A DNA stretch of 19,393 bases from Lama guanicoe (lineage: Eukaryota). Position 1 is the first letter of the stretch. Every line of letters starts with the position of its first letter. The notes under the pieces were generated by a model, which was not told the origin of the DNA, searched no databases, and saw nothing but the letters and a program-made list of their open reading frames with translations. The translations under genes and the position numbers were made by a program. Where the stretch lies: the NCBI GenBank assembly GCA_013239625.1, contig MU053164.1, positions 76,779-96,171 on the forward strand, in the 5' to 3' direction. Positions 3,066 through 18,180 of the stretch are shown here, in pieces.

Positions 3066-3451
3066 TGTCCTGCTATTTTTGCAGCAGAAAAAATTGGATT
3101 ATTTGTCTTATTATTGAGTTGAAAGAGTTTATTATGCATCCTGTATACAAAGCCTTTATTAGACATATTATCTGCAGTTGTTCTGTCCCTGACTGTGGCT
3201 TGTCTTTTCATTTTTTTAATAATGCTTTTTGAAAAGCATATGCTTTTTTTTTTAGAAAGTTCAATTTATTGTTTCTTCCTGTTTTGTAGCCTATACTTTT
3301 GATGAGTTATTTAGAAATAATTACCAAATCCAAGGTTATGAGGATTTACTCTTATGTCTTCTTTCAAGAGTTCAAGAGTTTCATTTATTGCAGTTAGATA
3401 TATTATCCATTTTGTTAATTTTTATATATGTTATGAAGTAAGGATCTAAGT

Positions 3452-3655
3452 CAGAGGTTGGCAGACTTTCTCTGTACGGGGCCATCGGGCTTTGTGGGCT
3501 GGACAGCATCTGTCCCAGCTCCTCACCTGTGCTGTTGTAGCATGAAGCAGTCATGGACAGTATGCAAACAGATATGACTGTGTTTCAAAAAAGTTTATTT
3601 GCAAAAGGAGGCAGCAGACTGGATTTACTTTATGGGGGTAGTTTGTTGATCTGTG
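3452..3655 (-). mobile_element. MER58A hAT-Charlie non-autonomous DNA transposon inserted in the L1
   Basis: Ends cagaggttggcagactt... and ...gtagtttgttgatctgtg. Internal aagtttatttgcaaaa. Degenerate 8-bp TSD atctaagt (3444-3451) / gtctaaat (3656-3663) resembling the NTCTAGAN target. Confidence 0.9.
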
Positions 3656-3970
3656 GTCTAAATATTACTTTTTGCAGGTAGATATCCAATTGCCCCAGCT
3701 CCATTTGCTGGAAAAGATTATCTTTTCCCTATTGAATTGCCTTAATTTCTTTGTTGAAAATCTATTGACCATAATGAAGCACTATTTCTGGACTCTCTGC
3801 TGTGTTCCATTGAGTGGCATGTCTATCCTTTTGCCAGTACTACACTTTCTTGATAACTGTAGCTTTGTAGTAAGTTTTAAAATCAAGAAGTACAAATTTC
3901 AGCATTATTTTGACCATTCTAAATTGTCTGCATTTCCATATAGATTTTAGGGTCGATCTATCAATTTCTG

Positions 3971-4000
3971 CAAAAACAAAACAAAACAAAAAAACAAAAC
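3971..4000. repeat. (CAAAA)n A-rich microsatellite inside the L1
   Basis: caaaaacaaaacaaaacaaaaaaacaaaac. Confidence 0.8.
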
Positions 4001-4031
4001 TGATCTAAGATTTTCTCAGAGATTAGTGAAT

Positions 4032-4262
4032 GCCTCCGCCCACCTTCAGACCACAGGACGGGCTGGCACTCCAGAGAGACCCCCAAGCTGCAGCCTATCC
4101 CTCTGTCTCTGTTAGACTGATCTCCAAATTGTATTTTCATTGTTTAGAGTTTGGGCCTGTGAAATTAGAACTCATAAGTAGGTTCAAGAATTTCTTCCAG
4201 GACAAATTTGAGGTCCTCTGAACTTCTGTGCCCCTAAACCTAACCCTAACCCTAAACCTAAC
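4032..4262. other. 231-bp insertion of unrecognised sequence ending in telomere-like repeats, flanked by a 9-bp TSD
   Basis: TTAGTGAAT (4023-4031) and TTAGTGAGT (4263-4271) flank it. Removing it rejoins the L1 as ...gattagtgaatctatagatc..., matching the L1 motif ttgaatctatagatc. Confidence 0.8.
4232..4262. repeat. Short interstitial telomere-like tract CCCTAA-ACCTAA-CCCTAA-CCCTAA-ACCTAA-C
   Basis: Read directly: 3 canonical and 2 variant hexamers in register. Confidence 0.9.
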
Positions 4263-4379
4263 TTAGTGAGTCTATAGATCGATTTGAGAGAATTTCCATT
4301 TTAACAATATGGGTTCTTCCAATTGATAAAATTGGAAACTATATCAATTTATTTAGATCTCCTTTAATTACTTTCTGTT

Positions 4380-4528
4380 AAGAAAACAATAGCAATAAAC
4401 CACATTATCACCTCAATAGAAAAATACATTTGACAAATCTAATATTCATTTATGATGAAACCTGTCAAAAACCTTGGAATAGAAGAGAAATTCATTAGCT
4501 GGATAAAAGCCCTCTTTAAAAAATCCTG
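4380..4528 (+). mobile_element. L1 ORF2 reverse-transcriptase-region fragment, sense orientation
   Basis: aaccacattatcacctcaatagaaaaatacatttgacaaatctaatattcatttatgatgaaa...ggaatagaag is a decayed match to the L1 segment encoding [23 protein letters not shown]...LGIEG. Confidence 0.8.
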
Positions 4529-4929
4529 TCTTCTGAAGCAGCATGGAGATTTTTAGAAACAAGGAGCCAGGGGCCCACTCCCTAAAAGAATGAATCAGAG
4601 CCTCTGGCCAGGATCCCACCTTGGCTAGTGGTCTCTAGTCAGGAAACACGGACAGCGAAGCGCACAAGGAAGGACTGGGACACCCCGGAAGCGGGGGGGT
4701 GTGGGCAAAGGTCCGCAAGGCTCAGTCTTGTTTGGTTACTGCCAGCAGGGACTCTTCCTGCAGGGTCAGGAGCTGTGGACTCAGTGACTCAGGGGTCCTA
4801 GATACATGTCCTTTTGTAACAGGCACAACTGTTCTGCTGTACATTGATTGCTAACATTTTAAAGGCATGGTAGGTAGAGTCCACACATCTGAGGGAGGGG
4901 TCACCCCCCCACTTCTTATTTATGTCCAT

Positions 4930-9206: not shown

Positions 9207-9241
<35 letters not shown>

Positions 9242-10839: not shown

Positions 10840-11440
10840 CCTGCGGGGGGCCAGCAGGGTCCGGTGGTGGGGGAGAGCCTCCTCCCCCAGGCCTCTGGCG
10901 CGGGACCTCGGGAGTGGGGATGCGGGTAGGTGGGACCCGGCCAGGAGGCGGTAGCTTTTCCTCCTGAGCACTCGCTGCCCTGGTGGGCCGTGCGGAGCTG
11001 GCCAGCTGCTTTCTGTCCCTCTGCCACTCCCTTTATCCCCCCAAACGCTCTGCCCAGAGGAGGAGCAGATGGAGCAGCAGGAGGAGCAGGCCGAGCCGGA
11101 GAAGGAGGTCGCTAGCGTCGCGCCCGCGCGGCCGCCCGAGCCTCCCTTGGGCTCCCACTGCCCTGGTTCGGCCCGGCCGGACCCGGCCTCGCCGGCGCCG
11201 GCAGCCGGACGGGGGCGCCGCGGCCCCTCGCCGCCCGGGCGCTCGGCCACCCGGCTGCCGCGGCCGCCGCCCCTTCTGCCCGCAGAGCGGCCGCAGCCAG
11301 GCTGGGCAGCCCCGGGGCGCCCCGCCGCGGGCATCGCCCTCCCCGGGCAAACAGCCCTTCTCAGCCAGGGGTTCGCCACGCCCCCACGGAGCACTTCCAG
11401 GCTCGCAATTAGGGTCTAGTCCACCCCTCCGTTTACGCAC
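10840..11440. promoter_or_regulatory. CpG island 1 (promoter/enhancer-like, gene not identified)
   Basis: Very dense CpG and high GC, especially 11090-11400 (gcgtcgcgcccgcgcggccgcccg, cgccggcgccgg), in an otherwise CpG-depleted background. Confidence 0.85.
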
Positions 11441-17321: not shown

Positions 17322-17415
17322 TTTGTTTTAACATTTTTTATTGATTTATAGTCATTTTACAATGTTGTGTCAAATTCCAGTGTTCAGCACAATTTTTCAG
17401 TCATTCATGGACATA
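17322..17415 (-). mobile_element. Young, heavily 5'-truncated L1 3' end, camelid-type
   Basis: ttttttattgatttatagtcattttacaatgttgtgtcaaattccagtgttcagcacaatttttcagtcattcatggacata: T-rich tail, antisense polyadenylation-signal region and Laurasiatherian L1 3' motif ttacaatgttgtgt. Camelid assignment from memory. Confidence 0.75.
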
Positions 17416-17539
17416 ATGAACAGACTCAGAGACTAAAATAGCTGGGGGTGGGCGAGGGGGTGATTTGGGGCCAACGGGGTAGTAGAGCCACTCTGCAGAG
17501 AGAATCCCAGGGGGGCCGTGGGGACAGTCAGGGATAAGC

Positions 17540-18180
17540 CCATCCGTGCTTCGTCCAGGGTGCGGGTCTTTCAGTGGAGCCCTGGGCGCCTCTGCGTGAA
17601 CGTGGGGCGAGGCGGGCCCGGTCCCCGGCGGCGGCTCTGCGGTGCATCTGCCCGCGCAGCCACGGCCGGCCGGACGGCGGGCGGCCCCCGCGCTCGTGCT
17701 CGCTCCGCCGCTCTCCTTAAACAGACTCCAGAAGCAACGCTCACCCTGGGAGTGGGGCTGGCGCAGGAGTGGGCGGAGCCCAGGCTGTGGCCCAGGACTT
17801 CCCAGGGCCCCCCCACAAGGACCGCCCTCCTGGGCCCCCTCTGCAGGGCTCAGAGCGGCTGCGGTGGGACCCGAGATAAGCCTGGGCCCCTCGGTCCCTC
17901 GCTTCCCTGCCCTGAAGGGACTCGCTTTGCTCCTTGCCCCCTGACTCAGCGCACTTTCCGCTGCAGGGACGCAGAGCCCGCCGCAGAAGGTCGTGAGAGC
18001 TCAGCCCTGGCAGCCAGGGGACAGGCGAGTGTCAGTTTGCTCAGCCTTTTCTCCACCGGCTCAGCCCCCCACGCGCCCGGCTCCCGCTGCGTGCTGGGCA
18101 CCGCCTCCGTAACCACGAGCACAAGAGCTGAATCTACTGGGCGTTTACTGCGCGCCTGGCCCCGTGCTGAGCACCCACGC
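17540..18180. promoter_or_regulatory. CpG island 2 (promoter-like, gene not identified)
   Basis: Dense CpG. GC box GGGCGGAG at 17771-17778. TATA-like TTTAAG on the minus strand at 17716-17721. Donor-like sites at 17744 (-) and 18025 (+). Confidence 0.8.

What the first reader, a model, noticed from the sequence alone, without database searches (positions are those of the whole stretch)
4023..4271. TSD-flanked 231-bp insertion with a telomere-repeat end instead of poly(A)
Seen: an old L1 is cleanly split. TTAGTGAAT (4023-4031) and TTAGTGAGT (4263-4271) flank about 200 bp that I do not recognise as any repeat, followed by five CCCTAA/ACCTAA hexamers. Deleting the insert plus one TSD copy restores contiguous L1. 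There is no poly(A), no TIR, no TG...CA LTR ends, and the site does not match the L1 endonuclease TT/AAAA preference. Established: short interstitial telomeric sequences arise at repaired double-strand breaks, often with target duplication and extra captured sequence (in rodents sometimes TERC fragments). Inference, with three alternatives: (a) break repair that captured a fragment and added telomeric repeats, (b) a displaced monomer of a lineage-specific satellite or subtelomeric repeat, (c) an undescribed short retroposon with a (CCCTAA)-type tail. The G-rich strand reads from the right flank into the insert, opposite to a natural subtelomere-telomere junction.
Basis: partly seen in the sequence, partly recalled or inferred. 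Interest (0 to 1): 0.7.

Follow-up and report, generated by a model that had tools for sequence, protein, structure and literature searches.

The report
Fossil break-repair patch with telomere repeats
A 231-base piece made of older genomic DNA plus five telomere-like repeats was once pasted into a dead LINE-1 element, most likely as a one-off repair of a DNA break, a known kind of scar in mammal genomes; that it belongs to a new mobile element is unlikely but was not excluded.

Summary
A 9-bp repeat (8/9 identical; 4023-4031, 4263-4271) flanks 200 bp plus 31 bp of CCCTAA/ACCTAA. It splits a decayed L1 ORF2 at the motif IYR|F with no L1 lost (by-eye match to ORF2p printed in a paper). There is no poly(A), no terminal inverted repeat, no Pol III box, no L1-endonuclease site (85), and no TERC or RNA-family match (8, 45). 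New here: bases 4052-4197 have a neutral DNA-level homologue, about 25% diverged, in two unnamed contigs whose upstream part does not match this L1 (59, 72, 81). So the body is cut from longer, older DNA. Best reading: a single break-repair patch, i.e. a templated fragment plus a short interstitial telomeric tract with target duplication (about 0.75). Whether telomerase added the hexamers here (0.45) or they came with the donor (0.28) is open: no flank base is in register, and the tract is an exact 18-bp period. Copy number, donor and empty site could not be measured, so a dispersed family (0.12) or a satellite (0.07) remains possible. A new member of a known kind.

The parts
3699..3845 (-). 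Decayed L1 ORF2, residues about 888-933 (host element, left of the insert)
   Evidence: phmmer against PDB chains, E 1.1e-5 to 1.4e-4 for five LINE-1 ORF2p sequences
3897..3974 (-). Decayed L1 ORF2, continuing after the insertion point
   Evidence: 7 of 19 residues identical by eye to the ORF2p fragment printed in PMC13278076; no PDB hit on its own
3973..4000 (+). (AAAAC)n microsatellite inside the L1; holds the 20-nt surplus left of the site
   Evidence: arithmetic
4023..4031 (+). Left copy of the 9-bp target duplication; keeps the base that codes the F of ORF2 IYRF, so it is the unchanged copy
4032..4231 (.). 200-nt non-L1 body: 48% GC, 2 CpG, no stable fold, no RNA family, no Pfam match; ends in one extra C before the first hexamer
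4052..4197 (+). Part of the body with a neutral DNA-level homologue (source DNA of P0001/P0002), about 25% diverged
   Evidence: E 2.6e-4 in 1.84e9 proteins; 22 of 24 residue differences are one base apart; 88 bits against at most 19.4 in 16 control slices
4232..4262 (-). Short interstitial telomere-like tract, 5.2 units, two TTAGGT variants, exact 18-bp period; the G-rich strand runs from the right flank into the body
4263..4271 (+). Right copy of the target duplication, one substitution
4272..4377 (-). Decayed L1 ORF2 up to the motif IVKM..IYR, contiguous with the left side
   Evidence: 15 of 29 residues identical by eye to printed ORF2p; no PDB hit at E up to 10

Best explanation
A single germ-line repair event at a staggered break in an already decayed L1. 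Shown: an insertion with a 9-bp duplication and no loss of L1; a body that is a cut-out of longer, older non-L1 DNA; a telomere-like tract whose G-rich strand starts at the right-hand break end. Inferred: the break left 9-nt 3' overhangs. Telomerase extended the right-hand 3' end by about five hexamers. The left-hand 3' end was extended on, or joined to, a distant template (DNA or an RNA copy). The two ends were then joined, perhaps through C/G microhomology at the CCCC junction (4231-4234). Later one substitution and an 18-bp slippage duplication gave the two identical variant units. No function is proposed. The wider claim, a one-off repair patch with or without telomerase, has about 0.75.
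For: Clean split of ORF2 at IYR|F. No poly(A), endonuclease site, inverted ends or Pol III boxes. The body's homologue scores 88 bits over 4052-4197, and its upstream part does not match the L1 flank (13.3 bits, shuffles up to 16.9), so it is not the orthologue of this locus and the donor context runs beyond the insert. Changes fall 9 at codon position 1 and 11 at position 2, with 2 ambiguous, which is neutral DNA. No close paralogue came up in the one reading frame searched. Precedent: telomeric tracts were inserted with added sequence at 22 of 130 rodent loci and with duplication at 6 of 130 (PMC2246262); in horse 13 of 66 with insertion, 3 of 66 with duplication, 2 of 66 with deletion, addition and duplication (PMC7215372). 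Experimental templated insertions at breaks are 73-414 bp, median 191 (PMC5110952).
Against: 0 flank bases are in register with the hexamer phase, whereas 75-78% of mouse, rat and horse loci have at least one. Two independent substitutions would hit the same hexamer position with the same base with probability 0.066, or 0.009 for a transversion (post hoc), so a slippage step or an inherited variant array is needed. Repair-type (class 2) templated insertions usually lack a duplication. In 36 of 41 TERC-ITS loci the fragment lies upstream of the G-rich repeats; here it lies downstream. Copy number, donor and empty orthologue were not observed.
Confidence: 0.45

Rival explanations
1. One-step capture with no telomerase: the whole 231 nt was copied from a donor that already held a degenerate telomere-like tract (an older interstitial telomeric locus, or a subtelomeric duplicon where sequence lies beyond an internal tract).
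For: No in-register flank base; identical variant units in an exact 18-bp period, 13 of 13. It needs only one template and one event. 2 mismatches in 5.2 units is like the old class of tracts, 0.29-0.40 per unit. The homologue is uninformative beyond about 4206, where its frame stops.
Against: The tract ends exactly at the duplication with no donor sequence beyond it, so the captured piece would have to end inside the tract. No donor with the tract was seen; a junction motif found nothing in viral contigs, which is a weak test.
Confidence: 0.28
2. A 5'-truncated copy of an undescribed or unrecognised dispersed repeat (retroposon-like) that ends in a CCCTAA-type tail and is inserted by target-primed reverse transcription at 3' overhangs.
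For: The geometry (body, simple-repeat tail, 9-bp duplication) is that of a retroposon read on the + strand. A longer homologue extending upstream is what 5' truncation would give. The 25%-diverged homologue could be an old paralogue.
Against: No Pol III boxes, poly(A) or endonuclease site. No fold on either strand, z -0.02 and -1.07. Only 2 protein clusters, 96% identical to each other, carry the homologous frame. An exact 19-mer gave 1 unrelated hit in metagenomes and none in viral or prokaryote contigs. These collections are poor tests for a mammalian repeat.
Confidence: 0.12
3. A displaced monomer or fragment of a lineage-specific satellite, inserted for example from an extrachromosomal circle.
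For: Satellites can shed dispersed copies (established knowledge). The alpaca catalogue is incomplete: 6 of 20 loci have no consensus and centromeric arrays were not its focus (PMC13751797).
Against: No internal sub-repeats in the body and no second copy in the window. The catalogued monomers are 1.8-8.5 kb; one body motif and the two-unit telomere motif are absent from the first 400 characters held of each. A 25%-diverged homologue on 1.4 and 2.3 kb contigs fits ordinary DNA better (inference).
Confidence: 0.07
4. Two separate events at one site: a templated fragment with duplication first, a telomeric tract later (or the reverse).
For: It would explain the unusual order and the missing register.
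Against: It needs a second break exactly at the first junction. Published tracts with extra sequence arose in one step where this could be dated (abstract).
Confidence: 0.05

Closest known systems
Short interstitial telomeric sequences (s-ITS) inserted at double-strand breaks (PMC2246262; PMC7215372)
   Same: At least four hexamers with under one mismatch per unit; sudden appearance inside an older repeat, judged against the repeat's sequence; added sequence and target duplication are both listed modifications.
   Different: No in-register base. Addition plus duplication without deletion is not a row in the two tables read. The added piece is 200 nt with a traceable homologue; the examples I read give 7 and 17 nt called random.
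TERC-ITS (PMC8537989; PMC2246262)
   Same: A telomeric tract joined to a non-telomeric fragment; the order flank, G-rich repeats, fragment matches type B (4 of 41 loci).
   Different: The fragment is not TERC: no Rfam telomerase hit, 48% GC, 2 CpG, 200 nt against 25-118 nt.
Templated sequence insertion polymorphisms, classes 1 and 2 (PMC5110952)
   Same: A patch of about 200 nt copied from a distant region. It shares the duplication with class 1, and the lack of poly(A) and endonuclease site with class 2.
   Different: It fits neither class fully. That review reports no telomere sequence in human polymorphic cases, though three experimental insertions had telomeric repeats.
SINE/LINE copies with simple-repeat tails, e.g. 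RTE-mobilised SINEs (recalled)
   Same: Body, short-repeat tail and target duplication.
   Different: No promoter boxes and no evidence of copies. A five-term paper search listed 3 papers, none describing such a family by title or start of abstract.

Membership tests
short ITS inserted at a break | At least four TTAGGG units, under one mismatch per unit | tested here: met
   5.2 units, 2 mismatches in 31 nt; criterion
short ITS inserted at a break | Absent from the ancestral sequence (here judged against the host repeat) | tested here: met
   ORF2 is colinear across the site, by eye against printed ORF2p
short ITS inserted at a break | Empty orthologous locus in a relative | not testable with these tools
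short ITS inserted at a break | Break-site bases in register with the hexamer (frequent, not obligatory) | tested here: not met
   0 bases; about a quarter of published loci also have 0
short ITS inserted at a break | Hexamers absent from the donor of the added sequence | not testable with these tools
   Only protein translations of the homologue are held; they end before the tract
TERC-ITS | Added fragment homologous to telomerase RNA | tested here: not met
   No telomerase family among 9 and 2 weak Rfam matches at E up to 10; the species' own TERC was not available
L1-mediated insertion (class 1 TSIP, processed pseudogene, poly(A) SINE) | Target duplication of 5 bp or more | tested here: met
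   9 bp, 8 identical
L1-mediated insertion (class 1 TSIP, processed pseudogene, poly(A) SINE) | Poly(A) tail with an upstream signal | tested here: not met
   Longest A run 3, T run 4, no signal on either strand
L1-mediated insertion (class 1 TSIP, processed pseudogene, poly(A) SINE) | TTTT/A endonuclease site | tested here: not met
   Site context in both orientations
Class 2 TSIP (repair patch) | [quoted passage not shown] | tested here: inconclusive
   A homologue exists elsewhere and there is no donor in the window, but the donor in the host genome was not located
Class 2 TSIP (repair patch) | No target duplication | tested here: not met
   A duplication is present
SINE / retroposon family | Many dispersed copies, each with its own duplication | not testable with these tools
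   Indirect searches were negative but do not cover the host genome
SINE / retroposon family | Internal Pol III A and B boxes or a tRNA/7SL/5S head | tested here: not met
   Regex scan and Rfam; a 5'-truncated copy could lack them
DNA transposon / MITE | Terminal inverted repeats | tested here: not met
   3 of 15 matches
Satellite monomer | Tandem high-copy arrays in the host genome | not testable with these tools
   No genome and no depth data; published alpaca consensus sequences were readable only for their first 400 characters

The most novel reading that the evidence does not exclude
The insert is a truncated copy of an undescribed mammalian retroposon whose RNA ends in CCCUAA-type repeats instead of poly(A). 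It inserts at staggered breaks without the L1 endonuclease preference, with telomerase or L1 reverse transcriptase acting on a non-TERC RNA. The 25%-diverged homologue would then be an older member of the family.
Probability: 0.1. Interest if true: 0.8.

Novelty: new member of a known kind. Interest (0 to 1): 0.27.

Why it matters
As read here it is a neutral fossil. Its modest value is that the added sequence, usually logged as random at such loci, has a traceable homologue. One genome search can therefore tell whether telomerase added the hexamers at this break or they were copied from the donor, which is the telomerase-versus-capture question posed for interstitial telomeric sequences (PMC2246262). 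It could also serve as a clade marker. If the novel case were true, it would be a mammalian mobile element with a telomeric tail.

Tried and rejected
TERC or another structured RNA: Rfam gave only sub-threshold matches (9, 2); folding is no better than shuffles. Local donor: no match better than E 0.44 in the rest of the window. Coding origin: six frames of the insert have no Pfam match; the 62-codon open frame has no Atlas hit; P0001/P0002 have no Pfam match and only sub-0.8 Atlas hits; the change pattern is neutral. Prokaryote, phage or plasmid origin: blastn gave 12 records each; all 12 phage and 10 of 12 plasmid hits cover only the hexamers, the other two 27-30 nt at E 0.7; none for the flanks; protein-guided scans confirmed none of 12, 276 and 108 candidate stretches. 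The single metagenome hit L001 looks unrelated outside the motif, by eye. An L1 protein could not be fetched, and short PDB searches missed. The source names of P0001 could not be queried. Public runs: 20 of 24 listed rows hold 0.96-1.00 of the words of 3700-4500, from 9 studies and 5 organism labels. 14 rows are flagged as possible sources; the other 6 come from 2 studies of one label. Earlier findings: three look-ups returned nothing. The 19-nt body motif is not in the paper library text; a camelid ITS search listed 20 papers, none on this topic by title.

Full report
Observation. The tract is beyond chance: 4 motif hits against a shuffle mean of 0.12. The 8-of-9 repeat is common by itself (2.5e-4 per position and offset) and is meaningful only because it marks both L1 junctions.

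Host element. Bases 3699-3845 on the minus strand match LINE-1 ORF2p residues 888-933 (E 2.8e-5). The pieces next to the insert were too short or decayed for PDB searches, so I compared them by eye with human ORF2p fragments printed in Table 3 of PMC13278076 (two passages seen; row A has the 151 residues of the fragment that the text identifies as ORF2p). The right flank has 15 of 29 residues identical. After a one-base frameshift it reads IYR into the right repeat copy. The left copy codes the next residue, F, and the match resumes at 3974 (7 of 19 identical to row B). No L1 is missing; a 20-nt surplus lies in an (AAAAC)n tract. The left copy keeps the ancestral base and the right copy has changed. 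The two copies agree with each other better than this stretch agrees with ORF2p, so the duplication postdates much of the L1's decay (inference).

What the insert is not. It has no poly(A) or signal, no inverted ends, no Pol III boxes and no L1-endonuclease site in either orientation. It has no Rfam match near threshold, telomerase RNA included, no fold beyond shuffles, no Pfam match in six frames and no donor in the window.

What the body is. One frame is open for 62 codons. Searched against 1.84 billion proteins it gave one hit, P0001, E 2.6e-4, 24 of 48 identical without gaps. Of the 24 differing residues, 22 are one base from the window's codon; nulls give 8.6 and 10.8, with 0 of 100,000 draws reaching 22 under either. 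Changes fall about equally on codon positions 1 and 2 (9 and 11; 2 ambiguous), so this is neutral DNA homology seen through a spurious frame, not a conserved protein. A codon-aware alignment scores 88 bits over 4052-4197, against 11.8-19.4 for 16 control slices; divergence peaks near 25% on a flat curve from about 18 to 35%. P0001 and its 96%-identical relative P0002 come from unnamed Logan contigs of 1.4 and 2.3 kb. A profile search found no others among 1026 candidates. Their upstream part does not match the L1 flank, so they are not this locus in another species. The body is a piece of longer, older DNA: either single-copy sequence or an old repeat. By eye the match may run to their stop codon near 4206 with one codon gap; they say nothing about the tract.

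The tract. The G-rich strand starts at the right-hand break end and runs into the body, as de novo addition to a 3' overhang would. Against this, no flank base is in register, a minority state (22-25% in mouse, rat and horse). The tract is an exact 18-bp period with two identical variants, unlikely from two independent changes (0.009-0.066, post hoc); either slippage followed one change or the array was inherited. One extra C at 4231 allows a C/G microhomology join, which is untested. Age is loose: 1 of 9 (0.3-48%) between the repeat copies and 2 of 31 (0.8-21%) in the tract.

Distribution. 20 of 24 listed runs hold 0.96-1.00 of the sampled words of 3700-4500, under 5 organism labels; 14 may be the source of this DNA, and 6 from 2 studies of one label are not so flagged. 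An assembly artefact is unlikely. This is the main gap. Scans of prokaryote, viral, plasmid and metagenome collections were negative but say little about a mammalian repeat.

Comparison. Short telomeric tracts inserted at breaks, with added sequence or with duplication, are documented in rodents, primates and horse (PMC2246262, parts 1, 2 and 4 of 7 and passages; PMC7215372, passages, supplement search empty). TERC-ITS loci (PMC8537989, parts 1-4 of 7) share the layout of type B but need a TERC fragment, which is absent here. Templated insertions have the right size, but this case mixes class 1 and class 2 features (PMC5110952, parts 1-2 of 4). The alpaca satellite catalogue (PMC13751797: abstract, Results part 1 of 2, passages, spreadsheet) lists monomers of 1.8-8.5 kb; only the first 400 characters of each were readable and its slide file was not, so a match deeper in a monomer is not excluded. 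The per-locus supplements of the ITS papers may hold closer precedents than I saw. I found no paper on this sequence or on a hexamer-tailed mammalian SINE (listings only).

Verdict. A real, old, single-locus insertion, best read as a break-repair patch: telomerase-added tract 0.45, tract inherited from the donor 0.28, dispersed repeat 0.12, satellite 0.07, two events 0.05. It works like a short ITS with templated addition; it is not a TERC-ITS and not a standard L1-mediated insertion. Interest 0.27.

Noticed in passing
window 4379-4530: An L1 ORF2 piece on the + strand, opposite to the rest of the element; by eye it matches row C of the table (an upstream reverse-transcriptase stretch). This suggests a 5'-inverted L1 (twin priming). 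Pfam and PDB searches gave no real hit.
   Followed up: partly
window about 3445-3660: A more GC-rich piece of about 200 nt interrupts the same L1; it resembles a MER58-type hAT fossil (recalled, not tested), which would make the host L1 very old.
   Followed up: no
window 11000-11400 and 17500-18000: Two GC-rich, CpG-rich blocks (GC 0.73 and 0.72), probably promoter islands; the first follows GAGCAG-type repeats.
   Followed up: no
window 17330-17416: Resembles the 3' end of a young camelid L1 in reverse orientation (recalled, not tested).
   Followed up: no
window 4259-4266: The tract end and the start of the right repeat copy form a small inverted repeat (CTAA-C-TTAG), and the duplicated 9-mer itself begins with a telomere-like TTAG on the opposite strand; chance or a role in priming is not decided.
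   Followed up: no
window 9210-9239: Perfect (TG)15 microsatellite.
   Followed up: no
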